64,000 nt of DNA from a virus (IMGVR_UViG_3300001765_000263:1-64000); one strand, 5' to 3'. Counted from the stretch's first letter, positions 3,861-62,438 are shown. Numbers and translations: made by a program. Notes: generated by a model not told the origin, from the sequence alone.

Positions 3861-3870
3861 GGAAACCCGA

Positions 3871-4444: not shown

Positions 4445-4480
4445 ACTGATGAGAGGTAAATTAATGATGAAATGTTAAAC

Positions 4481-4520: not shown

Positions 4521-4537
4521 AATAAGGAGTAACACAT

Positions 4538-16609: not shown

Positions 16610-17298
16610 CATATACAGTAACACCAATTGCGGTTCAAATAGTAGAAGGAACTCCCACATTTAACGAAACATTAACAGTTACGTGTGATGGGGAAAATAC
16701 TGGCACTGCAACGGTAATTGAAGTTACAACAGATGCAACCAGCATAGACTTGAAATACACAAAGAAAGATAACACTGCAACGGTTACTGGATCGGTAATT
16801 AAGAAATCTCTCGCAGAATTTTCAAGAACCTATTCATACGTCACAGACGATAATCAACGTGGTGTAGTTACATCGATATCACAAGTTCCATCGAATGCAT
16901 CCATTTACAGATATACCGCACCAAACCCAATGGGGAATGTAGTTCCAGCAAATATAAAAATTGAATGCACGTCTGGAACTGGTGGTACAAGTACATCAGC
17001 ATGGGCATGTGGAGTAGACACATATGGGGCATTGGGATTTAATGGGGAATCTAAAACAACACTAACCTCCCTTGGGGCATATTCAAAAATAAATCAAGGG
17101 TACGGGCTAACTGCACTAATAAAACCAAATGGCACATTATGGACATGTGGATATAATTATTTCGGTGGATTAGGACTAGGTGACAATATTAATAGATCAT
17201 CACCAACACAAGTTGGAAACTACATGGAAAGAGGTAAGTTGTGCATACAACAGATTATTTGCAATCAAGACAGATGGATCATTGTGGGGTTGTGGTGA
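16606..17298 (+). CDS. RCC1-like repeat protein, 5' segment of a frame-disrupted gene
   Basis: Has an ATG start. RCC1-type blades (WACGVDTYGALGFNGESKT..., GTLWTCGYNYFGGLGLGDNINRSSPTQVG). The frame breaks at 17215-17225, inside a 113-bp repeat. Confidence 0.5.
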   Translation: MTYTVTPIAVQIVEGTPTFNETLTVTCDGENTGTATVIEVTTDATSIDLKYTKKDNTATVTGSVIKKSLAEFSRTYSYVTDDNQRGVVTSISQVPSNASIYRYTAPNPMGNVVPANIKIECTSGTGGTSTSAWACGVDTYGALGFNGESKTTLTSLGAYSKINQGYGLTALIKPNGTLWTCGYNYFGGLGLGDNINRSSPTQVGNYMERGKLCIQQIICNQDRWIIVGLW

Positions 17299-18934: not shown

Positions 18935-19233
18935 GTTGTGGGTATAAAAGTTTTATTGCACTAAAGACAGATGGCACAATATGGACATGTGGGTATAACA
19001 ATTATAATTTAGGATTTGACGACGCACTTCATAGATCGTCACCATGTCAAGTCGGAACATTATCCACATGGTCTGATATAACTATAACTGAAAATGCAAT
19101 TGGTGCAATTCAAGGTATAGCAGGAACTGGTACAACTAACATAGTAAATATACCGTTCAACTTTAATATTCAATCAGATTGGAATAAGGCTAATTCTGAA
19201 TTGATTACTGCCGTTAAAGGGAGAACTGTGTAA
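18889..19233 (+). pseudogene. RCC1-like repeat, 3' segment back in frame 1 (no start codon). With the two ORFs above it looks like a single frame-disrupted or recoded gene.
   Basis: Frame 1 is open from 18889 to TAA at 19231-19233. It encodes …TWKEVSCGYKSFIALKTDGTIWTCGYNNYNLGFDDALHRSSPCQVGTLSTWSD…, i.e. further blades. Confidence 0.35.
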
Positions 19234-46148: not shown

Positions 46149-46156
46149 TATAAATA
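46149..46156 (+). promoter_or_regulatory. T4-type late-promoter-like box, TATAAATA
   Basis: Exact TATAAATA 29 nt upstream of the ATG at 46185, in a 39-bp intergenic gap. Confidence 0.35.
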
Positions 46157-47894: not shown

Positions 47895-50800
47895 GTGACT
47901 TGGAAAGTTAATGGTGTTGATATTGATGATGTCTTCTTAACTGAAGATGAAATCTCTACGATGAAATTTAATTATGTTAATGGGACATTTGTAACTAATG
48001 TAGATTATAGCCAGCCAGTAGTAATAGGCACATCGAATACTTTTAAATCTGCTAAATCTGACAAAACCTCTACATCATGTATAGCAGATGGAAATACATT
48101 AAATATAGTTTCATCAAATTATAACGACACTATATTTTCCAACGTCAATATAACACCAAATAATATATTTTTTTATAGTAGAGCAAAAAAAAGTTCTTTT
48201 TATTCATATTATAGACGTTCCCATGTATATTCTTTAGGTTTAAATCAGTATGGACAATTGGGGCATGGCGACACTATATCTAGATCATCTCCAACACAGG
48301 TTGGGGCATCAAGTGATTGGAATCAAATTGTTGGTGATATAACAACATATGGTATTAAAGAAAACGGCACGTTGTGGTCATGGGGAAAAAATACCTATGG
48401 ACAATTAGGTCATGGTGATAATATTCATAGATCATCACCAACACAAGTCGGCACGTTGAGTGATTGGAATTATGTTAATTTACAGTTAGAATCTTCATTT
48501 TTTATTAAAAATGGCACACTATGGGCATGCGGGTATAACACCTATGGACAATTAGGTCATAGTGACAATATTCATAAGTCAATTCCAACACAGGTTGGTG
48601 GTCATATTTATTGGGAAAAAGTTTTCTGTGGAGAAAATAGTTCAATCGGAAAATTAAAAGATGGCAGTATATGGTCTTGGGGCAATAATAAATATGGGAA
48701 ATTGGGGTTAGGTAATAAGATTCATAGATCATCACCTGTTCAAGTTGGGAATGAAAAAAATTGGAATGTTATTAGTTGCAATTATAATAATACAATGGCA
48801 ACTAAAAACAATGGAACATTGTGGGCATGGGGAGATAATACCCAAGGACAGTTTGGGCAAGGTGACACAATTCATAGATCATCACCAACACAAGTTGGGA
48901 CATCAAGTGATTGGAGTACTGTATCGTGTGGAAATGCACATTTTGCAGCAATTAAAAATAATGGCACATTATGGGGTTGTGGCGACAATAGATCAAACCA
49001 ACTTGGTATTGCTAATACCGAAAGATATTCATCACCAATACAAATTGGTTCATTGAGTAATTGGAAAGCATTAAACTGTGGATATAATCTATCATTATAT
49101 ACAGATAACGATACTACTTATTTTAGTGGAAATAATCAAAACATAATCAGTGTTACTGGAACACTTAAAGATGTAAATTATAATTACTCTAGTGATAAGA
49201 TTAATGGAAAAATACACTCTAATGGTATTATAACACCTAGTGGCAAATTATATTGTTTTGGTTATGGTGGTGGTATTGGAAATATGTACGATACCACGTC
49301 TTCTAGTCCATATATAAAAGAGTATGGTCAGGGAAATTTTGATTCATTTCACGACAATAAAAGATATTTAACTGCAAAAGATAATAATGGTGGACTGTGG
49401 GTTTCCCAATTTTATCAAGTTCAGGATTATGTTGTTGGACCTAGAACATTTCAAGACGTTAATATAAATGACTCTATAATTACCAGTGTTAATAGTGAAG
49501 CTGACCAGGTTTTTTCTTATGTGAAATCTGATGGCACATTGTGGACTGCAGGGACAAATGGATATGGTGAATTAGGAATAGGTCAATATATACTACATAG
49601 ATCTTCCCCAACACAAGTTGGATCATTAAGTGATTGGAGTTATACCAGTACAGGAAGAAATACATTATTTGCTATTAAAACTAATGGCACATTATGGTCA
49701 TGTGGATATAATTATAATGGGCAATTGGGGGTATTTGAAACAAGCAACAGATCGTCCCCATGTCAGGTAGGATCATTAAGCAATTGGAAAACGTGTAAAT
49801 CTTCTCAGAATTCTGTGTGGCTAACGACAAATAATAATGAACTATTTGTTTTTGGTAGCAATCAAGATGGATTACTTGGAATAGGAAAAACAAATGATTA
49901 TAGTGTAGTTTCTTCACCAGTACAAGTTGGATCTTCAATATCCACGTATAATAGTGGAGGAATTTTGGCATCTTATATTAAATCAACAGACTCGACAGTA
50001 TGGGCATGGGGAGATACATCGAAATTAATTCCAGGCACATCTACTGGTCAATTATCACCGATATTGATTGGATCTTATTCTAAGATAATGCATAGTAGTT
50101 CAACAACAGATACATGGTTAATTAAATCTGATGGCACATTGTGGGCATGTGGTGGTAATACATCTGGTGTGTCTGGGTTAGGTGATACTATAACTAGGTC
50201 GTCACCTACACAAGTAGGAACATTGAGTGATTGGGGTAGCAGCACTTTTCCTAGATCCATGAATTATTGTATTTTATGTATAAAATCAAACGGTACATTA
50301 TGGGCATGGGGAGATAATTATAATGGGGCATTGGGACTTGGTGACACTATATCTAGATCATCGCCAACACAAGTTGGATCATTAAGTGATTGGAGTAAAG
50401 TTGCCTCACAAGAGAATGCTACATTATTGGTAAAAACAAATGGCACATTATGGGCATGCGGGTATAACCAATATGGGGTATTGGGATTAGGAAACACTAT
50501 TAATAGGTCGTCCCCAGTTCAAGTTGGGGCATTAAGTGATTGGAGTAAGGTGTTTGTTGATTATCATACCTTATCTTTTGCTATTAAGACCAACGGTACA
50601 TTATGGGCATGTGGATATAATTATAATGGGCAATTGGGGTTAGGTAACAAGATTCATAGATCATCACCTGTTCAAGTAGGTTCATTAAGTGATTGGAAAG
50701 ACGCAATAGGTAATTATTCAGCATCAGCATTTATAAAGACGGATGGTACATTATGGGGTTGTGGTTATGGTGGACAAGGATTAATAGGTAACGGCAGTAC

Positions 50801-53369
50801 AATACACAGATCATCACCAGTACAAGTTGGATCATTAAGTAATTGGAATAACATTTATGGTCAAACTGCAGGAAGTATATACTTTATGGCAACAAAATCA
50901 GATAACACTTTATGGTTAACAGGTGGTGTTGGGTCTTCAGCAACGTGTACATTGGCACGTTTTGCAGGAAGTATATTTTTGTATTCTCCTGTTCAAGTTG
51001 GGGCATTAAGTGATTGGGATAAAGTCTCTGGTGGCTTTCACACAATGCTTGCTATTAAAACTAATGGCACATTATGGTCATGTGGATATAATAATTATGG
51101 ACAGTTAGGCTTAGACGACGAGATTCATAGATCATCACCAGTACAGGTTGGGACGTCAAGTGATTGGAATTTAGCAAACGCGGGAACATACAGTTCAGCA
51201 GCAATCAAAACCGATGGAACATTGTGGACATGTGGAAGAAACATAGAAGGAGAACTTGGGATTGGATTAGTTCCAAACGTTACGGTTATGTCGTCACCAG
51301 TTCAAGTAGGTACGTCAAGCGATTGGGGAAGTTTTGGTATTAATGGACTGTCAGATAATGGGGGGTTGAGTGCAATAAAATCGAATGGCACTTTATGGGT
51401 AATGGGGTGGAATGTATATGGACAATTGGGTTTAGGCGACATTATTGATAGATCATCACCAGTTCAAGTCGGTACATTGAGTGATTGGAGTAAAATAGCT
51501 ACTACTACTTATAACTTTGCAGCAATTAAAACAACAGGCACATTATGGGCATGCGGGTACAATCCTAAAGGGCAACTAGGGACTAGTAACAAAATACACA
51601 GATCATCACCAGTGCAGGTTGGATCATTAAGTGATTGGAGTACGCTATCTATACATGGTGAATCGTCGTTTTTTATTAAGACTACTGGCACATTGTGGGC
51701 ATGCGGGTATAACCCATATGGGGTATTGGGACATGGAAATACTACTCATAGATCATCACCAGTCCAAGTCGGTACATTGAGTACTTGGACAAGTGTTATA
51801 AACACTACTGGAAGTTCAGTATATGCTATTGGTGGAAATAAACTATATTGTTGGGGGTCAAACAGTGGCGAACTTTGTCTTCCAGATAATATTGATAGAT
51901 CATCACCTGTTCAAGTGGGGTCATTAAGTGATTGGAGTAAATTAGTTGGGCATGGGGCAATCAAAACGGATGGTACATTATGGGGTTGGAGAGATAATAC
52001 TTATGGACAATTGATGACAGGCGACTATGAGAATAAATCATCTCCTGTTCAAATAGGATCATTAAGCGATTGGAGTAAAGCAGTAATTAGGAATGACAAT
52101 ATTATTGGGGTTAAGACTAATGGCACATTGTGGACATGTGGACATAACTTATATGGGCAATTAGGACTTGGTGACACCATTCATAGATCATCTCCTGTAC
52201 AAATTGGATCATTGAGTACTTGGGAAAATATAGAGTCTGGTTGGGGTGCTTATAAAACTGTGGTGGCAAGTAAGACAGATAATACAATATGGACATTTGG
52301 AACTATGCCTGTATTTATGATAATATATGGAAATAAAAGAGACACATTTACCAAAGTTGGGACATTAAGTAATTGGACTGACGCAAAAGTAACTAATGGT
52401 CATTTTTATGGGATAAATGCTGGTAGGTTATTTGTATGTGGGTCAAATTACTATAGTCAATTAGGAACATATTATATCGGTAATATTTCGTCACCAGTAC
52501 AAATTGGATCATTAAGTAATTGGAGTGCATTAGATATTTCTCAAAATGCTGACATTGCAATTGCTAAAAACACAGCAAATAGTTTATATATTAAAACACC
52601 ATTAAATTCAGTAACATTAAATGGTATGCAAAGACCATTTATTAAACATTATGATATAGGAACTACAATCGATAGTATAGTTGGAACTGTTGACATGGTT
52701 GGTTATATTAGTGGAGGCAAACTTTTTACGTATGGCGAAAACTTGCAGGGGTCATTAGGAAATGGCAATACAAATCGTAGGTCATCACCTGTTCAAGTTG
52801 GATCATTAAGTGATTGGAGCAAACTCGACGGGAATAATACTTGCTTACTTGCTATTAAAACAGATGGCACATTATGGGGATGGGGAGGAAATGTCCATGG
52901 AATGCTTGGTATTGGTGTTACAAGTTGGAGGTCGTCACCAACTCAAGTTGGATCATTGAGCGATTGGAGTAAAATTTCTTGTGGTTATTATGGAACTCAT
53001 GCTATTAAAACAGATGGCACATTATGGGGATGGGGAAATAATGGATTTGGTAAATTGGGTTTAGGCGACACCACTTATAGATCATCGCCAGTGCAGGTTG
53101 GGGCATTAAGTGATTGGAGTAAAATTTCTTTTGGTTACAATTGTACATCTGCAATCAAAACAAATGGAACACTATGGATCTCTGGTATTCTACCTATGTC
53201 GGACGAACTAATTTATGTATCATCTCCAACACAAATTGGAACAATGTCAAATTGGGAAGATGTTTCTTGTAATATTAATTTAGTGGCAAGCAACACAGAC
53301 GGTGAGATTTTTGTTGCTGGTCAAAATTCTGGAGTTTTTAGTTTGAGTGGACCATATGGATATTACTAA
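47895..53369 (+). CDS. giant RCC1-like beta-propeller repeat protein (1824 aa; about 30 blades by eye)
   Basis: GTG start with AAGGA 9 nt upstream and no in-frame ATG nearby. Continuous blades with the consensus GTLWxWGxNxYGQLGLGDTIHRSSPxQVGxLSDWSKV. Confidence 0.65.
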   Translation: MTWKVNGVDIDDVFLTEDEISTMKFNYVNGTFVTNVDYSQPVVIGTSNTFKSAKSDKTSTSCIADGNTLNIVSSNYNDTIFSNVNITPNNIFFYSRAKKSSFYSYYRRSHVYSLGLNQYGQLGHGDTISRSSPTQVGASSDWNQIVGDITTYGIKENGTLWSWGKNTYGQLGHGDNIHRSSPTQVGTLSDWNYVNLQLESSFFIKNGTLWACGYNTYGQLGHSDNIHKSIPTQVGGHIYWEKVFCGENSSIGKLKDGSIWSWGNNKYGKLGLGNKIHRSSPVQVGNEKNWNVISCNYNNTMATKNNGTLWAWGDNTQGQFGQGDTIHRSSPTQVGTSSDWSTVSCGNAHFAAIKNNGTLWGCGDNRSNQLGIANTERYSSPIQIGSLSNWKALNCGYNLSLYTDNDTTYFSGNNQNIISVTGTLKDVNYNYSSDKINGKIHSNGIITPSGKLYCFGYGGGIGNMYDTTSSSPYIKEYGQGNFDSFHDNKRYLTAKDNNGGLWVSQFYQVQDYVVGPRTFQDVNINDSIITSVNSEADQVFSYVKSDGTLWTAGTNGYGELGIGQYILHRSSPTQVGSLSDWSYTSTGRNTLFAIKTNGTLWSCGYNYNGQLGVFETSNRSSPCQVGSLSNWKTCKSSQNSVWLTTNNNELFVFGSNQDGLLGIGKTNDYSVVSSPVQVGSSISTYNSGGILASYIKSTDSTVWAWGDTSKLIPGTSTGQLSPILIGSYSKIMHSSSTTDTWLIKSDGTLWACGGNTSGVSGLGDTITRSSPTQVGTLSDWGSSTFPRSMNYCILCIKSNGTLWAWGDNYNGALGLGDTISRSSPTQVGSLSDWSKVASQENATLLVKTNGTLWACGYNQYGVLGLGNTINRSSPVQVGALSDWSKVFVDYHTLSFAIKTNGTLWACGYNYNGQLGLGNKIHRSSPVQVGSLSDWKDAIGNYSASAFIKTDGTLWGCGYGGQGLIGNGSTIHRSSPVQVGSLSNWNNIYGQTAGSIYFMATKSDNTLWLTGGVGSSATCTLARFAGSIFLYSPVQVGALSDWDKVSGGFHTMLAIKTNGTLWSCGYNNYGQLGLDDEIHRSSPVQVGTSSDWNLANAGTYSSAAIKTDGTLWTCGRNIEGELGIGLVPNVTVMSSPVQVGTSSDWGSFGINGLSDNGGLSAIKSNGTLWVMGWNVYGQLGLGDIIDRSSPVQVGTLSDWSKIATTTYNFAAIKTTGTLWACGYNPKGQLGTSNKIHRSSPVQVGSLSDWSTLSIHGESSFFIKTTGTLWACGYNPYGVLGHGNTTHRSSPVQVGTLSTWTSVINTTGSSVYAIGGNKLYCWGSNSGELCLPDNIDRSSPVQVGSLSDWSKLVGHGAIKTDGTLWGWRDNTYGQLMTGDYENKSSPVQIGSLSDWSKAVIRNDNIIGVKTNGTLWTCGHNLYGQLGLGDTIHRSSPVQIGSLSTWENIESGWGAYKTVVASKTDNTIWTFGTMPVFMIIYGNKRDTFTKVGTLSNWTDAKVTNGHFYGINAGRLFVCGSNYYSQLGTYYIGNISSPVQIGSLSNWSALDISQNADIAIAKNTANSLYIKTPLNSVTLNGMQRPFIKHYDIGTTIDSIVGTVDMVGYISGGKLFTYGENLQGSLGNGNTNRRSSPVQVGSLSDWSKLDGNNTCLLAIKTDGTLWGWGGNVHGMLGIGVTSWRSSPTQVGSLSDWSKISCGYYGTHAIKTDGTLWGWGNNGFGKLGLGDTTYRSSPVQVGALSDWSKISFGYNCTSAIKTNGTLWISGILPMSDELIYVSSPTQIGTMSNWEDVSCNINLVASNTDGEIFVAGQNSGVFSLSGPYGYY

Positions 53370-55167
53370 AATTATTATACATAACAGTCAAATTTATGCA
53401 ATTGATTCGATAGGAAAAAACTTATGGGTTTTTAATGCCAATAACATACGATATCAATGGGTATTATTAGACGATGATAATTGGCAAGACATAACAAATG
53501 GAGATTCTCATTTTATTGGACTTAAACAAAATGGCACACTATGGGGATTTGGCGAAAATAATTATGGTCAATTAGGATTAGGACACACTAATAAGATTGA
53601 AAACTTAACAATGCTGTCATCTGCACCAATAACAACAAAATGGAGTAGGGTATCATGTGGAGGAAATTCAACATGTTTAATAGATACTCAAGGGAATGGA
53701 TATGTATGTGGTGAAAACAAGTATGGACAATTTGGAACTGATAATTTTGTAAATCTTTCTACACCAACACAAATTGGTTCTTATAAAATGCAATATGCTT
53801 CTATAAGTAATAGAAATTTAATTTTTATTGATGACAACAACACATTATATGGGTCTGGAAATTATTGGGGGTTAGGTGCTTCTCCAGCAAGTGCTATTAC
53901 ATCAATAAGTTCTCCAGTTCAAATGCAGTCATGTATGGGAATTTCTCAAATTTCCAATGGTGTAAATGGCAATATGTACTATAACATGAATGCAATTGTT
54001 GATCATAGAATTTTATCATGGGGTACTTATCCGCAATTTTTTAATACTGAATATAGTTATAATGAAACAATTGATTATCAAAATGGTTCAGATTGGGATT
54101 ATGTTTCTTCTGTGGGGAATGGAGCATTAGCAGTAAAAACGAATGGTACATTATGGGGGTGTGGGTTTAATGATTGGGGGCAATTGGGAACAGGAGATGC
54201 AACTACAAGAAACTTAATGACTCAAATTGGATTATTAAGCGATTGGACACAAATTTCTGGTGAGTATAAAAATGCTGGTGCTGTAAAATCTAATGGTACA
54301 TTATGGGTATGGGGAAATAATGCTAACGGACAATTAGGACTTGGTGATATTAGAAATAGATCATCTCCAACTCAAGTCGGTACATCGAGTGATTGGTCTT
54401 CATTAACATTTGGTGTTAGAACAACAGCATATATAAAAAATGATAACACATTATGGATGTGTGGATATAATACCACTGGAGAATTGGGGTTAAGTGATAT
54501 TATCTATAGATCATCTCCTGTACAAGTAGGTGGGTTAAGTGATTGGAGTAAGATTAGGTGTGGATATTTTCATTCTGTTTCTATAAAAACTGACAACACA
54601 TTATGGTCATGGGGGTATTGTTATTATGGACAATTGGGAGTTAGTAACAATGCTAATAGATCGTCACCTGTTCAAGTTGGAGCATTGAGTGATTGGAGTA
54701 AGGTTGCTTGTGGTTCTTATCACACTATTGCAATTAAAACAAATAATACATTATGGTCATGGGGTCAAAATACCTATGGCCAATCAGGTCTTGGTAATGT
54801 TGTTCATAGATCATCTCCAACTCAAGTTGGCACATTGAGTGATTGGAGTGATATTGCTGGCGGCGACAGATGTTCTTTTTTTCTTAAAAATACTGGTGAT
54901 TTATGGGCATCAGGAACAAATACAGCAGGAGTTCTTTCAAATACAGTTTCTACTAACACATTTATAGAACTCAAAAAGAATGTTAAGCATGCTGAAACTG
55001 CCAATGGAAATACAATGCACTATACATATGACGATGAGTTGTTTTTTTGTGGGAATAATGTATATACTGTTGTTGGTTCAAAATCTTTAGTTCCAGTATC
55101 AAGAGGAATTTTAAGGAATTTGGAATTTGAATTAACTCCAACCCTAGCTGTACAGAAACGATTATGA
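53356..55167 (+). CDS. RCC1-like repeat protein
   Basis: ATG at 53356 (the track's GTG at 53347 is also possible). Overlaps the end of the preceding gene. Blades throughout. Confidence 0.6.
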   Translation: MDITKIIIHNSQIYAIDSIGKNLWVFNANNIRYQWVLLDDDNWQDITNGDSHFIGLKQNGTLWGFGENNYGQLGLGHTNKIENLTMLSSAPITTKWSRVSCGGNSTCLIDTQGNGYVCGENKYGQFGTDNFVNLSTPTQIGSYKMQYASISNRNLIFIDDNNTLYGSGNYWGLGASPASAITSISSPVQMQSCMGISQISNGVNGNMYYNMNAIVDHRILSWGTYPQFFNTEYSYNETIDYQNGSDWDYVSSVGNGALAVKTNGTLWGCGFNDWGQLGTGDATTRNLMTQIGLLSDWTQISGEYKNAGAVKSNGTLWVWGNNANGQLGLGDIRNRSSPTQVGTSSDWSSLTFGVRTTAYIKNDNTLWMCGYNTTGELGLSDIIYRSSPVQVGGLSDWSKIRCGYFHSVSIKTDNTLWSWGYCYYGQLGVSNNANRSSPVQVGALSDWSKVACGSYHTIAIKTNNTLWSWGQNTYGQSGLGNVVHRSSPTQVGTLSDWSDIAGGDRCSFFLKNTGDLWASGTNTAGVLSNTVSTNTFIELKKNVKHAETANGNTMHYTYDDELFFCGNNVYTVVGSKSLVPVSRGILRNLEFELTPTLAVQKRL

Positions 55168-56546
55168 CATATAAAGACAAATATAAAAAAATAACAAAAA
55201 ATTTAGCTCCATATAATTATCAAGCAAATGATTATGCATTTTTGAATAGTGTCGGAAGAAAAAATGTTTTGTTTGGTAGAAATCTTAATACCATGAACGT
55301 TTTTCATCCTAACAGGTCTGGTTCTAACAGTAAAACTTTTGTTAGTTCTATTTTAGAAATAACAGACATTGATGACATGGATATAATAGAAGTTACTAAT
55401 TCTGCAGTATATTTTTCTTATAATGGGGATACTTACATATCCTCATTAACTAGCGATTTAGTATATACATCTTTTTTTACAACTAAAGAAGAAAATTTAA
55501 TAAAACATCACTTTCCTGTAAAGTTGGTTGCAATTGGTGTTTACGATGGGATATTGTTAGATGTAAATGATAGATTATTTTATAATACATCTCCCTCAAC
55601 ATTTAATAGATTGATACAACATAAAAGCAGTCTCAACACGTTTTCTATACATGAAGAGATTACCTATGTCACAGCAAATACAGTTGTAAATAACCTTGGA
55701 TTTATAAAATCTGGAACATTATGGACATGCGGATATAATCTCTACGGACAACTAGGGTTGGGGGATATTGTTGGAAGATCATCTTTTGTACAAGTTGGTA
55801 CTTTAAGTGATTGGAAAACTGTCAACATTGAATCCCATCATTCAATGGGGACAAAGACTAATGGTACATTGTGGACATGGGGATATAACACCAATGGAGA
55901 ATTGGGATTAGGCGACAAAATTCATAGATCATCACCAGTTCAAGTTGGAGCATTGAGTGATTGGAGTAATGTGTCTAGCGGTGGTAATTTTAAAGCAGGA
56001 ATAAAAACTACTGGTACATTGTGGGCATGGGGAAGAAATGATTATGGACAACTAGGATTAGGTAATCTTATTAGTAGATCATCTCCAACTCAAGTTGGAA
56101 CATTGAGTGATTGGAGTACATGTGCGATTTCTGACGCAAGGCTTTTATCTGTTAAAACCAACGGTACATTATGGGCATGCGGGTATAATGTATATGGGTG
56201 TTTAGGATTAGGCGACACTATATCTAGATCGTCACCAGTTCAAGTTGGATCATTAAGTGATTGGAGTAAGGTTGATTGTGCAGACGGAAGTTTTACTGCA
56301 CAAAGAACGAATGGCACATTATGGTCTTGTGGAAAGAACGATGTTGCTCAATTAGGTCATGGTGATACTATTCATAGATCATCTCCAACTCAAGTAGGCA
56401 CATTGAGTGATTGGAGTATATTTACTATGGGGAAGACCTGTTTAGCTGCGGTAAAAACAGATGGTACTTTATATGTATCACGGAATTTTAAATGTTTAGA
56501 AGTAGACGAATATCTTTTACCTTTTAAAAGAAAAATGGATTATTAA
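55164..56546 (+). CDS. RCC1-like repeat protein (460 aa)
   Basis: ATG overlaps the upstream TGA (ATGA). The first about 180 aa are unique, followed by blades. Confidence 0.6.
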   Translation: MTYKDKYKKITKNLAPYNYQANDYAFLNSVGRKNVLFGRNLNTMNVFHPNRSGSNSKTFVSSILEITDIDDMDIIEVTNSAVYFSYNGDTYISSLTSDLVYTSFFTTKEENLIKHHFPVKLVAIGVYDGILLDVNDRLFYNTSPSTFNRLIQHKSSLNTFSIHEEITYVTANTVVNNLGFIKSGTLWTCGYNLYGQLGLGDIVGRSSFVQVGTLSDWKTVNIESHHSMGTKTNGTLWTWGYNTNGELGLGDKIHRSSPVQVGALSDWSNVSSGGNFKAGIKTTGTLWAWGRNDYGQLGLGNLISRSSPTQVGTLSDWSTCAISDARLLSVKTNGTLWACGYNVYGCLGLGDTISRSSPVQVGSLSDWSKVDCADGSFTAQRTNGTLWSCGKNDVAQLGHGDTIHRSSPTQVGTLSDWSIFTMGKTCLAAVKTDGTLYVSRNFKCLEVDEYLLPFKRKMDY

Positions 56547-56547
56547 A

Positions 56548-59500
56548 ATGATAATAGAAGACATTGCAACTAATATTGGTTCAGTAACCCAAACAATATT
56601 AAATGGTAAACTATTTACATTAGGTAATACAACATATGCAGCATATGGGGGCAAAAAATACACATACCTTAACTTACTAGATTCGAGTGCAAACTTTACT
56701 TCTTTACATGCTCATAGTGATATAATCTTTGCATTGACCAGTAATAATTGGTTATGGGGATTTGGGAATAATGCATATGGACAATTGGGACTAGGCGACA
56801 CCACTTATAGATCATCGCCAGTGCAGGTTGGGGCATTAAGTGATTGGAGTAAGGTTTCCCCTGCTAAATTTAGTACAATAGCGATTAAAACAAATGGTAC
56901 ATTGTGGAGTTGGGGCAATAACACCAATGGACAATTGGGACAAAGCAATAATATTTCTAGATCATCACCAACTCAAGTTGGGGCATTAAGTGATTGGAGT
57001 AAGGTTGCTTGTGGATATTATACAACTCAGGCTATTAAAACAGATGGCACATTATGGGGATGGGGAGGAAATAATTATGGACATCTAGGACTAGGCGACA
57101 CTATTATTAGATCATCGCCAGTGCAGGTTGGGGCATTAAGTGATTGGAGTAAGGTTGCTTGTGGTTCTTATCATACTATTGCAATTAAAACAGATGGTAC
57201 TTTGTGGTCTTGTGGATATAATAATACTGGTCAATTGGGACATGGAAATAGAATTCATAGATCATCACCTATTCAAGTAGGATCGTTAAGCGATTGGAAT
57301 ATTATTGGATGCAGTACATCCAGTTCATATTTTTATAATAATAGTGATGTGTTATATGCGTGTGGGACAACTAATAATCCTGGTCAAACAAATGTACAAA
57401 GATCATTACCTACACAATTGGGGTCATTTAAATCAGCATTGAGACCAATGTTAGATATTAAAAGCAATACCACACAGATTGTTCCAATGTTCATTTTAAA
57501 CAATATTGGAGAAAATAAAAAAACATTAACCTCTTGGAATGGATACCTCGGTGACGGAAATTCAAGCACTAACACACAAATTTATATAGAAGAGAATATG
57601 AGTTGGAGAGATGCAACTCGATTCAGTTCATCAGATATTGTTACAATAGATTCATCTGGAAGATTATGGAAAACTAATCTTTGGACACAAACAGACGTTT
57701 CTTCTCCTGTACAACTTGGTTCATTATCAAATTGGGAAAAATTGGGAAAAACCAATCAAGAATTAATTTCAACCAAAGATGTGTCTTACGTTAGTAACAA
57801 TTTAGGAGAATTATATTATTTTGGAAAAAACATTGATTATGCAGATAAATCAACTGCTTCTTATTTTACTGAACCATTTCATATAGATCCAGATGGTAAT
57901 GAAAGAACATCATATAGATTCATTATAAAAAACGATAATACATTATGGGGGTGTGGATATAACGACTCCAACTATACTCTTTCTATTATAGATGCTGCAC
58001 ATAGATCTTCCCCAACACAAGTTGGCTCATTAAGTGATTGGATGAAAATAGATGAATCATTCTCTTCAGTTTTCTCTGTTAAAACTGATGGAACATTATG
58101 GACGTGGGGTGATAATTTTTATGGTCAATTAGGATTGGGTGATACAATCCATAGATCATCACCAGTACAAGTCGGCAATTCACTGAATTGGATTAAAATA
58201 AGTGGTGGATTTGCAATCAACACTGATAGAACTTTATGGAGTCTAGGAGGGGAAAATAGTCAAGGGCAATTGGGACTTGGTGACACTATATCTAGATCAT
58301 CGCCAACACAAGTTGGATCATTGAATGACTGGCATCATATTAGTAGTAATAGTCTTCAGACGTTTGCAGTGTCCATAAAAGGAACATTATGGACGTGGGG
58401 GTACAATTTCATTGGTGTTCTTGGTGTTGGTGATACAATCCATAGATCATCTCCAACTCAAGTTGGATCATTGAGCGATTGGTTACACTGTAAAATATAT
58501 TCTGATGATAGTTCAATAAGCACACTTATATTAAAATATAATGGCACATTATGGTTATGGGGTGGTAATGGATATGGGAACTTAGGATTGGGTGATACAA
58601 TCCATAGATCATCTCCAACTCAAGTTGGATCATTGAGCGATTGGTGTACAATTTCTTCTTCGTCTGCCGTTAAAACCAATGGCACATTATGGACATGGGG
58701 TTTTAATACATATGGTGGATTGGGTTTAGGTGATACAATCCACAGATCATCTCCAACTCAAGTTGGATCATTGAGCGATTGGAAAGAAATTTTAAGTTTT
58801 GATAAAATATGCAAACAAAATGGCACATTGTGGGTATGCGGATATAATGGTACTGGTCAATTAGGATTGGGTGATACAATCCATAGATCATCACCAACAC
58901 AAGTTGGAACATTAAATAATTGGAATTTCCCTAAAGTAAAAGAAATACAAATTTTTGGTGATGACAATATAACGATCAGGGAGGATAACTCCGTGTTTTT
59001 TACAGGGTCAGATTTCCATACAACATTTTCTGAGGAAGTTCCACTTACAACACAAAAAAGATTTTATGAAATTGACGACAATGTAATTACGTGCCAAGGG
59101 ATTACGTACACAAAAAGTGATAATTCGATGTATATATGCCCGTCTTACGGTTTTAATTTTGTTGGATATTTTTTTCCATACTACGACAGAAATTATAAAA
59201 TTTCTAATACATTAAAATGGAAAAAAATGATTCATAGGAGTGGTAACTGTTCTGTGGCAATTGATAGTGACGATAAAATATATCAAAGTGGAGTACAAAG
59301 TTCTGGACTAGCAACTCCAACTGGATCATACACAAAAATAGGAAATGATACATGGAGTGATGTTGGTATTACAAATGATTATAGTGTCATATCTGCTGTT
59401 AAAACGAACGGAACGTTGTGGTCATGGGGACTTGGGATTTATGGGTGTTTAGGATTAGGCGACACTATATCTAGATCGTCACCAGTTCAAGTTGGAACAT

Positions 59501-60363
59501 TAAGTGATTGGAGTAAGGTTGTTGGTTCTAGAAGAAGTTTTGCATTTTTAAAAACGAATGGCACATTATGGACATGTGGGTATAACTTAACCGGTTGTTT
59601 GGGATTGGGGTTAGGTGACACTGCATCTAGATCATCTCCAACTCAAGTTGGAACATTGAGTGATTGGAGTAAAATTAGTACAAAAGGGGAGTATGATTTT
59701 GCTTTTTACAATGCATCAAATACTTATGTTACTGGTGAGTTAAAAACATATTTTGGTGTGTCTGGTATCGGTACGCTTTCACCTGTCGGGTTATATTCTG
59801 ATATAGATGGAAATTTAGCGTTAAAACCAAATGGAGAATTATATTATCTTAATGATGTTTCTCCAATAAGAATAGGATCAAGTTCTAATTGGGTTAAAAT
59901 ATCAGATGGTCTTGCAGTAAACAGTGATAAAAAAGTTTTTAGTTATACTACTTATTCAAAGAAAGCAAAGAATAAAAAATGGAATAAACAAGCAAAATCG
60001 ATTAGTGTTGGTGGATTAGACACACCGTTTTTATGTACAGTAACAACAGACAGCACATTGTGGAGTTGGGGGTATAATCAATATGGAACGTTAGGAGTTG
60101 GGGATCAAGTCCATAGATCATCTCCAACTCAAGTCGGCACATTGAGTGATTGGAGTAAAGTTGCTTGTGGCACTCAACATGCTGCTGCTCTCAAAACAGA
60201 TGGCACTTTATGGGCATGGGGATATAATAGTTATGGACAACTATCTAGTACTGGTCTTTCTTCTAACTCGACTGCTGCATCTCCTGCACAAATGGGAAGT
60301 TTGTCTATATGGCAAAATGTATGGTGTATGGATGCAGCAATTATAGGCGAGGTAATCAAATGA
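56548..60363 (+). CDS. giant RCC1-like repeat protein (1271 aa)
   Basis: ATG 2 nt after the previous stop. About 20 blades. Confidence 0.65.
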   Translation: MIIEDIATNIGSVTQTILNGKLFTLGNTTYAAYGGKKYTYLNLLDSSANFTSLHAHSDIIFALTSNNWLWGFGNNAYGQLGLGDTTYRSSPVQVGALSDWSKVSPAKFSTIAIKTNGTLWSWGNNTNGQLGQSNNISRSSPTQVGALSDWSKVACGYYTTQAIKTDGTLWGWGGNNYGHLGLGDTIIRSSPVQVGALSDWSKVACGSYHTIAIKTDGTLWSCGYNNTGQLGHGNRIHRSSPIQVGSLSDWNIIGCSTSSSYFYNNSDVLYACGTTNNPGQTNVQRSLPTQLGSFKSALRPMLDIKSNTTQIVPMFILNNIGENKKTLTSWNGYLGDGNSSTNTQIYIEENMSWRDATRFSSSDIVTIDSSGRLWKTNLWTQTDVSSPVQLGSLSNWEKLGKTNQELISTKDVSYVSNNLGELYYFGKNIDYADKSTASYFTEPFHIDPDGNERTSYRFIIKNDNTLWGCGYNDSNYTLSIIDAAHRSSPTQVGSLSDWMKIDESFSSVFSVKTDGTLWTWGDNFYGQLGLGDTIHRSSPVQVGNSLNWIKISGGFAINTDRTLWSLGGENSQGQLGLGDTISRSSPTQVGSLNDWHHISSNSLQTFAVSIKGTLWTWGYNFIGVLGVGDTIHRSSPTQVGSLSDWLHCKIYSDDSSISTLILKYNGTLWLWGGNGYGNLGLGDTIHRSSPTQVGSLSDWCTISSSSAVKTNGTLWTWGFNTYGGLGLGDTIHRSSPTQVGSLSDWKEILSFDKICKQNGTLWVCGYNGTGQLGLGDTIHRSSPTQVGTLNNWNFPKVKEIQIFGDDNITIREDNSVFFTGSDFHTTFSEEVPLTTQKRFYEIDDNVITCQGITYTKSDNSMYICPSYGFNFVGYFFPYYDRNYKISNTLKWKKMIHRSGNCSVAIDSDDKIYQSGVQSSGLATPTGSYTKIGNDTWSDVGITNDYSVISAVKTNGTLWSWGLGIYGCLGLGDTISRSSPVQVGTLSDWSKVVGSRRSFAFLKTNGTLWTCGYNLTGCLGLGLGDTASRSSPTQVGTLSDWSKISTKGEYDFAFYNASNTYVTGELKTYFGVSGIGTLSPVGLYSDIDGNLALKPNGELYYLNDVSPIRIGSSSNWVKISDGLAVNSDKKVFSYTTYSKKAKNKKWNKQAKSISVGGLDTPFLCTVTTDSTLWSWGYNQYGTLGVGDQVHRSSPTQVGTLSDWSKVACGTQHAAALKTDGTLWAWGYNSYGQLSSTGLSSNSTAASPAQMGSLSIWQNVWCMDAAIIGEVIK

Positions 60364-62438
60364 CATACAAAGGAATTAACTTCGTCAATAAGAGTATATT
60401 TGAGAAAGAAGGGTATTTAGTAGCATCGAGTAGATATGATTCTATTGAGTTACCAAGATTAGTTCCAGATATAATTGATCATTCTTATGGTCCTCTCAGT
60501 GAGATTTACATAAAAACGAATGGTACAATGTGGGCATGTGGATATAATGGACCGTGGGGAAAGTTAGGAATTGGTACAGCAGGGGATTATACAGAACGAT
60601 ATTCTTCTCCTATTCAAGTTGGGACATTAAGTACATGGGAAAAGATAACCGTTAGTTGGGGTGCTTCTTTTGCAATCAAAACCAACGGCACATTATGGTC
60701 ATGGGGGGATAATGAATATGGAAGTTTATGTCATGGTGACACAGTTCATAGATCATCACCAACACAGGTTGGATCGTTAAGTACGTGGTCTAGAGTGTGG
60801 AATGAATTTGGAAATTTTATTGCAACAAAAACGAATGGTACATTATGGGTGTGTGGAGATAATTCTGATGGGAAATTAGGTTTAGGAAACACTATTAATA
60901 GGTCGTCCCCAGTTCAAGTTGGGGCATTAAGTGACTGGAGTCAGATATCAGGTTCCGGTGGTAAAGTAGTTGCTATTAAAACAACTGGCACGTTATGGAC
61001 ATGGGGCAAGAATGATGGTTATAATAATTTAGGTCTTGGTGATACTATTAATAGATCATCCCCTACACAGGTTGGAACATTGAGCAACTGGAGTGCAATA
61101 GGGTTGAATGGAGATTTTACAATAATGTTAAAATCGACTGGCACATTATGGTTTTGTGGATATGCTTTTAATAATGTTTTTTATAGTGAAAATAAATCAT
61201 CCCCTGTTCAGGTTGGTACATCAAGTGATTGGAGTCAAATATATGTGACTAATATTAATTCTATTCTTGGTATTAAAACGAATGGGACATTATGGAGAAT
61301 TGGAGAAGACCCCATTTTTTATGGGGAAGTTACAGATAATAATGGTGTTCAGACTGGAACATTAAGTGATTGGGGAAGTTTTAAAGGAAGTCATAGTAAT
61401 ACGTTGATTAAAAAGACAAACAATACTTTTTGGAATTATGATTTTGATGGAGTATTTCACCCAATAAATGATAAAGAGGGTAATATCACTGCTTTATTGT
61501 CAAGAAAATATAACACAAGCAATATTAATATTTCTGATATGTATCGTCTTCAAGAAAGTTCTTTTTTAATATTTGAGGATACAAGAATATTGGTTGGAGG
61601 AGTAAATTCTTACGGACAATTAGGATTAGGTCATACCAGTTTTGTTACCACTCCAGTACAGTTAGGGGAAATAAACGAATGGAAATTTGGGTATTTTTCT
61701 TCACAGTTTTTGATGTCTGTCTTTTTAAAAATGAACGGCACTTTATGGACTTGTGGTTATAACAATTTTGGACAATTGGGACTTGGTGACAACCTTGCTA
61801 GATCATCACCAGTACAGGTTGGGACATTAAGTGACTGGAGTAAAATTGGTGAAACATATGTAACTAGAACAGACAATTCTGTATGGGTATGGGGTTGGAA
61901 TATTGACGGAAAATTGGGACTTGGTGACACTATTGATAGATTATCACCAGTACAGTTAGGAATAAAAAACGAATGGGATAAAATAGTATCTAACGGACGT
62001 ATGTCAGTGTTACTCAAAACAAATGGCAATTTATGGACATGTGGTTATAACAATTTTGGACAATTGGGACTTGGTGACACCATTCATAGATCATCACCTG
62101 TACAAGTTGGAACATTAAGTGACTGGAGTAAAATTAGTGGAGCTGGAGTGAGCATATTTGCATTGAAAACTAACAATACATTATGGGCATGTGGATATAA
62201 TTATAATGGGCATTTAGGATTGGGAGACACTATCCATAGATCATCTCCTACACAAGTTGGAACATTAAGTGATTGGTATGATACATACGGCAACTATGCT
62301 GTAAAAACCGATGGTACGTTGTGGTGTATTAACAATTCTTTAGTGTCAAGTCCAATACAAGTTGGGAAGTCTTTTAATTGGGTCAAACCAATCAGTACTG
62401 GAACTATATGGGGGCAATATATCGGATTAGCGAAGTGA
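60360..62438 (+). CDS. RCC1-like repeat protein (about 692 aa)
   Basis: ATG at 60360 overlaps the upstream TGA (ATGA), with GAGGT 8 nt upstream. The track's 60309 start would overlap the previous gene by 54 nt. Confidence 0.6.
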   Translation: MTYKGINFVNKSIFEKEGYLVASSRYDSIELPRLVPDIIDHSYGPLSEIYIKTNGTMWACGYNGPWGKLGIGTAGDYTERYSSPIQVGTLSTWEKITVSWGASFAIKTNGTLWSWGDNEYGSLCHGDTVHRSSPTQVGSLSTWSRVWNEFGNFIATKTNGTLWVCGDNSDGKLGLGNTINRSSPVQVGALSDWSQISGSGGKVVAIKTTGTLWTWGKNDGYNNLGLGDTINRSSPTQVGTLSNWSAIGLNGDFTIMLKSTGTLWFCGYAFNNVFYSENKSSPVQVGTSSDWSQIYVTNINSILGIKTNGTLWRIGEDPIFYGEVTDNNGVQTGTLSDWGSFKGSHSNTLIKKTNNTFWNYDFDGVFHPINDKEGNITALLSRKYNTSNINISDMYRLQESSFLIFEDTRILVGGVNSYGQLGLGHTSFVTTPVQLGEINEWKFGYFSSQFLMSVFLKMNGTLWTCGYNNFGQLGLGDNLARSSPVQVGTLSDWSKIGETYVTRTDNSVWVWGWNIDGKLGLGDTIDRLSPVQLGIKNEWDKIVSNGRMSVLLKTNGNLWTCGYNNFGQLGLGDTIHRSSPVQVGTLSDWSKISGAGVSIFALKTNNTLWACGYNYNGHLGLGDTIHRSSPTQVGTLSDWYDTYGNYAVKTDGTLWCINNSLVSSPIQVGKSFNWVKPISTGTIWGQYIGLAK

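What the first reader, a model, noticed from the sequence alone, without database searches (positions are those of the whole stretch)
50441..57200. Near-identical 35-60-bp nucleotide stretches shared between different RCC1 genes, suggesting gene conversion
Several blade-encoding stretches are identical or nearly so at the DNA level in different genes.
- taggcgacaccacttatagatcatcgccagtgcaggttggggcattaagtgattggagtaa occurs at about 53064 (gene 47895) and at about 56793 (gene 56548).
- gattggagtaaggttgcttgtggttcttatca(c/t)actattgcaattaaaaca occurs at about 54690 and about 57140.
- gctattaaaacagatggcacattatggggatgggga occurs three times (about 52851, about 52999, about 57031).
- ggcacattatgggcatgcgggtataa recurs five or more times.
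The protein repeats are otherwise divergent, so identity of this length points to recent duplication or ongoing recombination between blades. That would produce blade shuffling and possibly altered binding specificity.
Basis: seen in the sequence. Interest (0 to 1): 0.55.

Follow-up and report, generated by a model that had tools for sequence, protein, structure and literature searches.

The report
Short gene-conversion patches between phage RCC1 blades
A T4-like phage from a metagenome carries about 70 copies of an RCC1 propeller "blade" spread over eight tail-module genes. Short DNA patches (30-94 bases) have been copied between blades, which is a familiar kind of repeat recombination rather than a new mechanism.

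Summary
All four quoted strings occur within 0-2 nt of the stated coordinates.

- **Excess over codon constraint:** the five-gene RCC1 cluster (47895-62438) holds 29 exact repeats of 30 nt or more, and 12 of 40 nt or more. Keeping the proteins and shuffling synonymous codons gives 0.21 and 0.
- **Mosaic structure:** blades average 61% nucleotide identity. Beside the identical tracts, synonymous codon identity falls to 0.57, against an expected 0.51. A run-length test that allows for column conservation and pair divergence is exceeded at every threshold (0 of 1000 simulations).
- **Segment histories differ:** the three segments of a blade have different nearest relatives.

This fits short-patch homologous recombination (gene conversion) between blades, within and between genes, up to 37.7 kb apart. 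Whole-blade recent duplication does not fit. Tracts cover the conserved blade core (codon columns 11-37) and stop at the hypervariable hairpin, so they mainly homogenise the scaffold. Blade shuffling is not shown in this window.

No orthologue or strain variant of this phage was found. In C. difficile phiCD211-like phages, however, strain differences inside an RCC1 array are paralogue-templated patches, and a 5-blade deletion joins exactly at a 63-nt shared tract. Assembly artefact could not be excluded with reads.

Verdict: a new member of a known kind, of moderate interest.

The parts
47895..53369 (+). RCC1-repeat gene, 1824 aa, about 30 blade matches (several propellers); first gene of the five-gene cluster
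   Evidence: ORF. Pfam RCC1 PF00415 E=2.8e-177 and RLD PF25390 E=2.9e-212. Blade HMM hits.
53347..55167 (+). RCC1-repeat gene, 606 aa (JGI calls a 603-aa version); overlaps the stop of the previous gene
55164..56546 (+). RCC1-repeat gene, 460 aa. The N-terminal 165 residues are unmodelled and have no family match. Residues 165-440 form a confident RCC1-like propeller with five canonical 50-aa blades.
   Evidence: Pfam. AlphaFold2 model with pLDDT mostly above 85 for residues 180-430. Foldseek top hits UVR8, HERC1/2 RLD, RPGR, RCC1 with E down to 1.9e-29.
56548..60363 (+). RCC1-repeat gene, 1271 aa, 19 blade matches. It has the most blades in the tract-sharing network (11).
60309..62438 (+). 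RCC1-repeat gene, 709 aa as the longest ORF (JGI call starts at 60360, 692 aa); last gene of the cluster
53062..53122 (+). 61-nt exact tract, copy 1 (codes LGDTTYRSSPVQVGALSDWSK). Copy 2 lies at 56792-56852 in another gene. 45 nt of it is also shared with 57108-57152.
   Evidence: The pair's overall identity is 0.83 and no simulation in 300 reached a run this long.
56792..56852 (+). 61-nt exact tract, copy 2
56193..56249 (+). 57-nt exact tract (81 of 82 nt when extended to 56274). Partner at 59440-59496 in the next gene.
50330..50383 (+). 54-nt exact tract. Partner at 58269-58322, 7.9 kb away in another gene. Pair identity is 0.68 overall.
50487..50539 (+). 53-nt exact tract. Partner at 60882-60934, 10.4 kb away in another gene.
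58429..58483 (+). 55-nt exact tract within gene 56548. Partner at 58591-58645, and 39 nt also at 58744-58782. It lies in a local array with 138-162-nt period.
54691..54741 (+). 51-nt tract with one C/T difference. Partner at 57142-57192. It is one of the few tracts that run through the hypervariable hairpin (SDWSKVACGSYHTIAIKT).
52851..52886 (+). 36-nt exact tract in three copies (52851, 53001, 57031), 42 nt for the 52851/57031 pair. It spans the blade boundary (AIKTDGTLWGWG).
18328..18375 (+). 48-nt exact tract shared with 56012-56059, 37.7 kb away. It links the RCC1 gene next to gp5 with the main cluster.
16606..19230 (+). RCC1-repeat gene between gp5 and the PAAR protein, read in three frames (16606-17298, 17180-18934, 18904-19230). 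It contains the longest exact repeat in the window: 94 nt at 17129-17222 = 18822-18915, or 118 of 122 nt allowing a 4-nt indel.
38607..40583 (+). Structural-protein fragment (phrog_358/DUF4815 middle part) fused to diverged RCC1 blades. The blades are too diverged to share long tracts.
2841..5404 (+). T4-type gp59 (2841-3476) and gp32 (4538-5404) homologues, components of T4 recombination-dependent replication
   Evidence: Pfam T4_Gp59_N E=8.6e-08 and gp32 E=6.4e-48. Their role in recombination is taken from established T4 biology, not tested here.
46149..46156 (+). TATAAATA (T4 late-promoter consensus) in the 39-nt gap before gene 46185. A second copy at 62439-62446 lies right after the cluster. 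Together they suggest a late operon running 46185-62438.
   Evidence: The motif is not enriched in the window (8 found, 8.2 expected), so this is a lead only.

Best explanation
The window is the tail and baseplate module of an uncultured T4-like myovirus. This phage has expanded one RCC1-type propeller blade (50 aa, 150 nt) to about 70 clear copies in eight genes.

Blades are old and diverged, with mean nucleotide identity 61%. Short patches of 30-94 nt have recently been copied from one blade to another by homologous recombination, as non-reciprocal gene conversion or template switching. This happened within genes, between neighbouring genes and across 37.7 kb.

Patches lie in the part of the blade that is conserved at the protein level (GQLGLGDTIHRSSPVQVGxLSDWSK, codon columns 11-37). 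Half of them end at columns 34-37, where the hypervariable hairpin begins. The likely reasons are that heterology stops the exchange, or that patches overwriting the variable part are selected against. The visible net effect is partial concerted evolution of the scaffold, with the variable hairpins kept distinct.

**Shown:**
- The tracts exist.
- They exceed codon and protein constraint.
- Their flanks are mosaic.
- Blade segments have discordant nearest relatives.
- The tracts are restricted to the conserved core.

**Inferred:**
- The phage's own T4-type recombination system is the agent.
- These proteins are virion-attached host-binding proteins.
- The shared tracts can also act as crossover points that change blade number or order. 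This last point was shown only in C. difficile phages.
For: 1. **Excess over constraint.** There are 29 exact repeats of 30 nt or more and 12 of 40 nt or more in the five-gene cluster. The codon-shuffle null gives 0.21 and 0.
2. **Mosaicism.** A null with column-specific conservation and pair-specific divergence gives 2.0 pairs with runs of 30 nt or more and 0.35 with 40 nt or more. Observed values are 26 and 11, and 0 of 1000 simulations reach them.
3. **Saturated flanks.** In the 13 strongest pairs, codons for identical amino acids outside the tract are identical in 106 of 187 cases (0.57). The expectation from all blade pairs is 0.51. Diagonal identity drops abruptly at tract edges.
4. **Reticulation.** Distances in the three blade segments are almost uncorrelated (Spearman 0.12-0.15). 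Nearest neighbours agree in only 1-2 of 48 blades. For example, blade 57046 is closest to 18329 in segment A, 56752 in B and 54598 in C.
5. **Several alleles of the same motif are each shared by different pairs**. This argues against one selected nucleotide sequence.
6. **Scope.** 17 of 31 tracts of 30 nt or more link different genes, and 27 of 68 blades are involved.
7. **The process is seen directly in another phage RCC1 array.** Between C. difficile phiCD211-like contigs, 8 of 12 clusters of strain differences inside the array carry an allele found exactly in a paralogous blade of the same genome. Outside the array the figure is 0 of 19. One strain lacks 759 nt (5 blades), with the junction inside a 63-nt exact inter-blade tract.
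8. **Recombination genes.** gp32 and gp59 homologues are in the window.
Against: - No orthologue or strain variant of this phage exists in any collection searched. The classical test, paralogues more alike than orthologues, could not be run.
- Only one assembly exists. JGI 3300002026 and NCBI JFJP02000120.1 are the same contig, and no reads were available.
- The flank result depends on a background that is itself near saturation, so events cannot be dated.
- The PHI recombination test was uninformative because the sites are saturated.
- The longest repeat (94 nt) is followed by a frame break in both copies. That could point to sequence or assembly error in that particular gene.
Confidence: 0.75

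Rival explanations
1. Recent duplication of whole blades or blade blocks, followed by rapid divergence of the variable parts and no inter-blade recombination. Under this view the identical tracts are the not-yet-mutated remnant.
For: - Tandem arrays with periods of 138-150 nt exist.
- Multi-blade blocks align at 68-74% identity between genes.
- One pair (61713-61851 vs 62001-62139) is 87% identical over 139 nt, and its run length is not unusual for that identity (76 of 300 simulations).
Against: - Flanks of the tracts differ at synonymous sites as much as random blade pairs do (0.57 vs 0.51 expected). Point mutation cannot produce this while leaving 40-60 nt untouched.
- The run test conditions on pair identity and is still exceeded.
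- Partners change from segment to segment within one blade.
Confidence: 0.1
2. Assembly or consensus artefact. Reads from similar blades were merged, for example by bubble popping or mis-mapped polishing, which made conserved cores artificially identical. Alternatively the assembler threaded wrongly through true repeats.
For: - This is a single short-read metagenome assembly with no independent assembly.
- The longest repeat is followed by frame breaks in both copies.
- All tracts are shorter than a typical read, so longer ones may have been censored.
Against: - Wrong threading swaps flanks but cannot create identity. The mosaic pattern survives either threading.
- 14.5 kb of repeats remain open in five tidy, start/stop-coupled ORFs.
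- The same kind of tract occurs in independently sequenced phage genomes, including isolate C. difficile phages. There it coincides with real strain differences.
Confidence: 0.08
3. Constraint only. The tracts reflect strong protein conservation plus position-specific codon preference or nucleotide-level selection (for example mRNA structure), with no shared recent ancestry.
For: - Tracts lie where the protein is most conserved.
- The same protein motif is conserved in thousands of distant RCC1 proteins.
Against: - The codon-shuffle null never gives a repeat longer than 38-45 nt.
- The column-specific nucleotide null is also exceeded.
- Different pairs share different synonymous versions of the same motif.
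Confidence: 0.02
4. A diversity-generating retroelement or other targeted mutagenesis diversifies the variable parts of recently copied blades.
For: The blades have hypervariable segments next to conserved ones.
Against: - No reverse-transcriptase match was found among the 38 proteins scanned against Pfam, which cover nearly all large ORFs of the window.
- Differences are of all types rather than adenine-specific: AT 127, AG 106, CT 73, GT 57, AC 52, CG 19.
Confidence: 0.01

Closest known systems
Podospora anserina HNWD (het-d/het-e/het-r) WD40-repeat gene family: concerted evolution of propeller repeats within and between paralogues (Paoletti, Saupe and Clave 2007, PMC1805685; Chevanne et al. 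2010, PMC2873952)
   Same: Both involve a multigene family of beta-propeller repeat proteins in which repeat sequence is exchanged within and between genes. In both, a recognition function is proposed and variable positions are embedded in a conserved repeat.
   Different: - In Podospora, whole repeat units are exchanged and all repeats stay highly similar. Here blades average 61% identity and only 30-94-nt patches are shared.
- The Podospora variable residues were shown to be under positive selection on the binding surface. That was not tested here.
- The fold family differs (WD40 vs RCC1), as does the organism (fungus vs phage).
T-even phage distal tail-fibre adhesins (gp37/gp38): recombination within conserved motifs that flank hypervariable segments (Tetart et al. 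1996, 1998, as cited and extended in Trojet et al. 2011, PMC3157838)
   Same: Both concern a T4-type phage and a tail-module gene. Conserved motifs alternate with hypervariable segments, and exchanges lie in or near the conserved motifs.
   Different: - In the T-even case the exchanges are between phages, or between a few motifs in one small adhesin, and were shown experimentally to swap host range.
- Here the exchanges are between about 70 paralogous blades inside one genome.
- No tail-fibre role or host-range effect is shown here.
RCC1-like repeat proteins of other phages: 11 RCC1-like proteins in jumbo coliphage phAPEC6 (PMC7247149), the RCC1 protein next to the tail-fibre genes of C. difficile phiCD211-like phages, and RCC1-like propellers in tail-fibre proteins of Pseudomonas phages PollyC and Littlefix
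   Same: - Same domain family, present in multiple copies per phage genome.
- Located beside or inside tail-fibre genes.
- Long exact inter-blade tracts are also present.
   Different: - Sequence identity is only 28-40%.
- This phage carries far more blades, in a T4-like baseplate module.
- The function of phage RCC1 proteins is unknown. The phAPEC6 authors speculated about DNA condensation.
Recently amplified beta-propellers with near-identical blades (from my own knowledge of work by Chaudhuri, Soding, Lupas and colleagues; not checked here)
   Same: Propeller blades are the unit of amplification, and nucleotide-level identity occurs between blades.
   Different: Those arrays are near-identical over whole blades, reflecting recent amplification. 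Here identity is confined to short tracts in otherwise saturated blades.

Membership tests
RCC1-like repeat beta-propeller (Pfam PF00415 / PF25390) | Repeated ~50-aa RCC1 motif scoring above the curated threshold | tested here: met
   All five cluster genes and 17180-18934 pass both PF00415 (E 1.2e-44 to 2.8e-177) and PF25390. 38607-40583 passes PF00415 and PF13540 but falls short of the PF25390 cutoff (125.8 vs 150 bits).
RCC1-like repeat beta-propeller (Pfam PF00415 / PF25390) | Four-stranded blades arranged as a closed propeller | tested here: met
   The AlphaFold2 model of 55164-56546 has pLDDT mostly above 85 for residues 180-430 and four strands per 50-aa unit. Foldseek gives TM 0.68-0.72 on UVR8, HERC and RPGR RCC1-like domains with rmsd 1.8-2.5 A. 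The blade number of each propeller was not determined.
RCC1-like repeat beta-propeller (Pfam PF00415 / PF25390) | Guanine-nucleotide exchange activity on Ran, or chromatin binding (eukaryotic RCC1 proper) | not testable with these tools
   Not expected for a phage structural-module protein. Only fold and motif membership is claimed.
Gene conversion / concerted evolution among paralogous repeats | Identical nucleotide tracts between paralogous units beyond what protein and codon constraint give | tested here: met
   29 vs 0.21 tracts of 30 nt or more, and 12 vs 0 of 40 nt or more.
Gene conversion / concerted evolution among paralogous repeats | Mosaic structure: tract identity discordant with flank divergence (GENECONV-type criterion) | tested here: met
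   Run test: 0 of 1000 simulations reach the observed count at any threshold from 25 to 50 nt. Flank synonymous identity is 0.57 vs 0.51 expected. Segment nearest neighbours are discordant.
Gene conversion / concerted evolution among paralogous repeats | Paralogous units within a genome more alike than orthologous units between related genomes | not testable with these tools
   No orthologous locus was found in GenBank phages, IMG/VR, JGI metagenome contigs or the 5.8-billion protein set.
Gene conversion / concerted evolution among paralogous repeats | Strain-to-strain differences templated by a paralogue; repeat-number changes at shared tracts | tested here: inconclusive
   Not testable for this phage. 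It is met in C. difficile phiCD211-like phage RCC1 arrays: 8 of 12 difference clusters are paralogue-templated, against 0 of 19 outside the array, and a 759-nt deletion joins at a 63-nt shared tract.
T-even-type tail-fibre adhesin with motif-mediated recombination | The protein is a tail-fibre or receptor-binding component of the virion | tested here: inconclusive
   The genes lie in the gp5-gp6-gp7-gp8 baseplate module, one of them between gp5 and PAAR. RCC1-like propellers occur in annotated tail-fibre proteins of PollyC and Littlefix. There is no homology to gp34-38 and no proteomic evidence.
T-even-type tail-fibre adhesin with motif-mediated recombination | Conserved motifs flank hypervariable segments, and exchange lies in the conserved motifs | tested here: met
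   Tract coverage peaks at codon columns 22-34 and is nearly zero at columns 38-45. 16 of 30 tract ends fall at columns 34-37.
T-even-type tail-fibre adhesin with motif-mediated recombination | Exchange swaps host specificity | not testable with these tools
   The phage is uncultured and its host is unknown.
Diversity-generating retroelement target | Reverse transcriptase plus template/variable repeat pair with adenine-specific differences | tested here: not met
   No reverse-transcriptase match among the ORFs scanned. The mismatch spectrum is not adenine-specific.
Recently amplified propeller (near-identical blades) | Whole blades nearly identical at the nucleotide level | tested here: not met
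   Mean blade identity is 0.61. The best long self-alignments are 66-80% identical.

The most novel reading that the evidence does not exclude
The conserved blade core may work as a built-in recombination scaffold. About 70 blades in eight tail-module genes would share 40-70-nt homology blocks that the T4-type recombination machinery uses as crossover points. Hypervariable hairpins and whole blades could then be recombined combinatorially within one genome. That would amount to a recombination-based diversity generator for host recognition, much larger in scale than the gp37/gp38 motif shuffling of T-even phages. The paired frame breaks at the end of the 94-nt repeat could then be footprints, or switches, of such exchanges.
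Probability: 0.15. Interest if true: 0.65.

Novelty: new member of a known kind. Interest (0 to 1): 0.4.

Why it matters
If these RCC1 propellers are host-binding parts of the virion, this phage devotes more than 20 kb to one repeat family. Its members exchange sequence with one another. That would be a natural example of how a lytic T4-like phage keeps a large paralogous receptor-binding repertoire foldable through a homogenised scaffold while keeping the variable hairpins distinct.

There is also a practical point. Phage RCC1 arrays, both here and in C. difficile phages, contain exact inter-blade tracts. Those tracts are real recombination substrates, and they are also hazards for short-read assembly and for orthology-based comparison. 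The mechanism itself, gene conversion among repeats, is well known.

Tried and rejected
- **PHI (pairwise homoplasy) test** on the 69-blade alignment. It was uninformative because sites are saturated and variable sites cluster, and the observed value exceeded the null in the wrong direction.
- **Search for orthologues or strain variants.** None of these gave a syntenic relative:
  - megablast against GenBank phages;
  - IMG/VR with the neighbouring gene 46185, which found relatives of its C-terminal domain only, with no RCC1 blades nearby;
  - IMG/VR with the N-terminal domain of 55164 and with the full protein, where the best hit was 49% identical;
  - the 5.8-billion protein set, where the next best hit was 56% identical or less over the repeat part;
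  - JGI metagenome contigs by protein and by a 29-mer;
  - a degenerate DNA motif in IMG/VR.
- **Independent assembly.** The exact proteins occur only on one contig, held by both JGI and NCBI.
- **DGR hypothesis.** Rejected.
- **T4 late-promoter motif.** Not enriched in the window. Only its intergenic placement is suggestive.
- **Literature on RCC1 in phages.** Most hits were false positives for 'RCC' culture-collection strain numbers. A search for the WGS prefix JFJP found nothing relevant. I read 'MIS' in the contig name as possibly Middle Island Sinkhole, but this was not verified.

Full report
**Context.** The window is the tail and baseplate module of an uncultured T4-like myovirus with about 36% G+C.
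- Pfam and PHROG matches identify gp59 and gp32, gp48-like, gp53, gp5, gp6 and gp8, a gp7-like 2372-aa wedge protein, and PAAR and gp25.
- The gp6 homologue is only 35-36% identical to those of pelagimyophage Mosig, Methylophilales phage Melnitz and cyanomyoviruses. Megablast finds nothing in GenBank phages.
- The sequence is contig MIS_10000120 of JGI metagenome 3300002026, which is also NCBI JFJP02000120.1 (81.6 kb).
- Nine ORFs carry RCC1 repeats.
  - Five are consecutive and start/stop-coupled: 47895-53369, 53347-55167, 55164-56546, 56548-60363 and 60309-62438.
  - One gene between gp5 and PAAR is read in three frames (16606-19230).
  - 38607-40583 and the N-terminus of 40599-44570 also carry blades.
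- A blade HMM built from 22 ungapped units finds 99 matches, 69 of them scoring 30 bits or more.

**The observation.** Every quoted string is present, within 0-2 nt of the stated coordinates. The last string is exact only once, has five copies within one mismatch, and has 17 within three. The phenomenon is broader than described. The window has 54 exact repeats of 26 nt or more, and all but a trivial tandem repeat are in-frame tracts in RCC1 genes. The longest is 94 nt.

**Is it more than codon constraint?** I kept all protein sequences and permuted synonymous codons among positions with the same amino acid.
- In the five-gene cluster the null gives a mean longest repeat of 27 nt (largest 38 in 300 shuffles).
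- It gives 0.21 repeats of 30 nt or more and none of 40 nt or more. Observed values are 29 and 12, with a maximum of 61.
- One search gave the same answer for all RCC1 genes. Its top value of 116 was an artefact of the overlap between ORFs 16606 and 17180.

**Duplication or recombination?** Self-BLAST shows blades and multi-blade blocks at only 66-80% identity. Mean blade identity is 61%. Three analyses address mosaicism.

1. **Run-length test.** I aligned the blades by HMM column and simulated each pair. Match probabilities combined column-specific conservation with that pair's own overall divergence, which is conservative because the tract itself is counted.

   | Longest exact run | Observed pairs | Null mean |
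   |---|---|---|
   | 30 nt or more | 26 | 2.0 |
   | 40 nt or more | 11 | 0.35 |
   | 50 nt or more | 5 | 0.09 |

   None of 1000 simulations reaches the observed count at any threshold (first run).
2. **Flank divergence.** In the 13 strongest pairs, codons for identical amino acids outside the tract are identical in 106 of 187 cases (0.57). The expectation from all blade pairs at the same columns is 0.51. The flanks are thus about as diverged at silent sites as unrelated blades. The ungapped diagonals show identity falling abruptly at tract edges. The 187 of 187 figure inside tracts is true by construction and carries no weight.
3. **Segment discordance.** Distances in three blade segments (columns 1-13, 14-37, 38-50) are almost uncorrelated (Spearman 0.12-0.15). 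A blade's nearest neighbour is the same in two segments for only 1-2 of 48 blades. For example, the blade starting at 53016 shares its 5' end exactly with 52851 and 57031. It shares its core exactly with 56792, and the intervening 41 nt differ from 57067-57107 at five of seven silent sites.

Whole-blade recent duplication followed by point mutation cannot give this pattern. Short-patch transfer can. One pair (61713-61851 vs 62001-62139, 87% over 139 nt) is compatible with a simple, fairly recent duplication.

**Anatomy of the tracts.**
- Of 31 tracts of 30 nt or more, 17 link different genes. Distances range from 138 nt to 37.7 kb. 27 of 68 blades take part, 11 of them in gene 56548.
- Tract coverage is highest over codon columns 22-34 and extends over columns 11-37, the conserved core GQLGLGDTIHRSSPVQVGxLSDWSK. 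A second, smaller set spans the blade boundary (AIKTDGTLWxxG).
- Coverage is almost nil over columns 38-45, the most variable part of the protein. Sixteen of 30 tract ends fall at columns 34-37.
- In the AlphaFold2 model of 55164-56546 (pLDDT mostly above 85 for residues 180-430), each unit has strands at columns 3-7, 22-27, 34-39 and 43-48. The variable part is therefore the hairpin formed by the third and fourth strands.
- The model matches UVR8, HERC1/2, RPGR and RCC1 propellers.
- What is visible is homogenisation of the scaffold. Only a few tracts enter the variable hairpin (54688-54741/57139-57192 and 56977-57014/57127-57164). Blade shuffling and changed specificity remain an inference for this phage.

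**Evidence from elsewhere.** No orthologue or strain variant of this phage exists in the collections searched. The paralogue-versus-orthologue test could therefore not be run. Other phage RCC1 arrays retrieved with 55164-56546 also contain long exact inter-blade tracts.

Four of these loci are C. difficile phiCD211-like phages, in which the RCC1 gene follows the tail-fibre genes.
- Between two of them (95% identical), 8 of 12 clusters of differences inside the array carry an allele found exactly in another blade of the same genome. Outside the array the figure is 0 of 19.
- A third contig equals the fourth minus 759 nt, which is five blades. The junction lies inside a 63-nt exact inter-blade tract. 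Flanks are 100% identical to the left copy on one side and to the right copy on the other.

Short-tract conversion and unequal crossing-over at shared tracts therefore do operate in phage RCC1 arrays.

**Mechanism.** The most likely agent is the phage's own T4-type homologous recombination, which is coupled to replication. This rests on established T4 biology. gp32 and gp59 homologues are in the window, but UvsX and UvsY were not looked for outside it. The exchange is probably limited by heterology at the variable hairpin, or by selection against overwriting it. These steps are inferred.

**Rivals.**
- Constraint alone is rejected.
- DGR-type mutagenesis is rejected: the mismatch spectrum is not adenine-specific and no reverse transcriptase was found among the ORFs scanned.
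- An assembly artefact cannot be excluded without reads, but it is unlikely to explain the pattern. Mis-threading swaps flanks without creating identity, the 14.5 kb stay open in five ORFs, and the same pattern is tied to real strain differences in isolate phages. Short-read assembly may in fact censor longer tracts.

**What the genes do.** No function is established for phage RCC1 proteins. The phAPEC6 authors, who found eleven of them, speculated about DNA condensation (PMC7247149). Three things favour a virion-attached, host-binding role here, but this is inference:
- their position in the baseplate module, including one gene between gp5 and PAAR;
- translational coupling of the five cluster genes;
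- RCC1-like propellers in annotated tail-fibre proteins of Pseudomonas phages PollyC and Littlefix.

**Comparison with known systems.**
- The closest analogue in kind is the Podospora HNWD family, where WD40 propeller repeats undergo concerted evolution within and between ten paralogues (PMC1805685). There, whole repeats are exchanged and stay highly similar. Here only short patches are shared among saturated blades.
- The closest phage analogue is recombination at conserved motifs flanking hypervariable segments in T-even gp37/gp38 (PMC3157838).

**Verdict.** The finding is a new instance of a known process in a new gene family and host. It is not a new mechanism.

Noticed in passing
window 16606-19230 (frame breaks at about 17217-17226 and 18910-18923): The RCC1 gene between gp5 and the PAAR protein is split into three reading frames. 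Both breaks sit at the 3' end of the longest exact repeat in the window (94 nt, or 118 of 122 nt with a 4-nt CTAT indel), at GTTGGAAAC. Copy 2 would be in frame with one more A, giving QVGKLSTWKEVSCG, which fits the blade consensus. A -1 slip on U GGA AAC would have the same effect. Copy 1 lacks 4 further nt and stays out of frame. The cause could be a pseudogene whose lesion was copied by conversion, a homopolymer error, or programmed frameshifting. It remains unresolved.
   Followed up: partly
window 30432-44570: A 2135-aa structural protein (phrog_358, DUF4815) at 30432-36839 is followed by a second copy split into three ORFs: 36826-38607 (N-terminal part), 38607-40583 (middle part plus RCC1 blades) and 40599-44570 (one RCC1 blade remnant plus the C-terminal part). 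RCC1 blades thus appear to have been inserted into a paralogue of a conserved virion protein.
   Followed up: partly
L019-L022 (IMG/VR contigs of C. difficile phiCD211-like phages), RCC1 array at about 10050-13100: Strain differences inside the RCC1 array are mostly paralogue-templated patches of 12-101 nt. One strain lacks 759 nt (5 blades), with the junction in a 63-nt exact inter-blade tract (L022 12076-12138 = 12835-12897).
   Followed up: yes
window 44766-47888, 62485-63264, and L024 17322-21383 (downstream of the window's cluster): The RCC1 cluster is bracketed by enzyme genes. A radical-SAM protein and an unknown 567-aa protein lie upstream. A sulfotransferase, two methyltransferases, a family-2 glycosyltransferase and a TPR protein lie downstream. 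This may be a glycan or protein-modification set linked to the RCC1 proteins.
   Followed up: no
window 46149-46156, 62439-62446, 4437-4444: Three of the eight TATAAATA motifs (T4 late-promoter consensus) lie in the rare intergenic gaps just upstream of + strand genes: before 46185, after the RCC1 cluster stop and before the sulfotransferase gene, and before gp32. The motif count itself is at chance level.
   Followed up: partly
window 4489-4518 and 7284-7319: There is a perfect 10-nt tandem repeat (AATCGTATCT x3) in the gap just upstream of gp32. There is also a perfect 9-nt repeat (CAGTTGGTG x4) inside the unannotated 729-aa ORF on the minus strand (5554-7743).
   Followed up: no
window 53-871 and 3736-4407: An SPFH/Band-7 protein and an Asp/Asn beta-hydroxylase-like cupin protein sit next to the gp59 and gp32 replication genes. 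These are unusual auxiliary genes for a T4-like phage.
   Followed up: no
window 48000-62000: GC skew is strongly positive (0.17-0.28) across the RCC1 cluster, against about 0-0.1 in some other parts of the window. This is probably a compositional effect of the Gly/Trp-rich repeat (GGN, TGG) rather than a replication signal.
   Followed up: no
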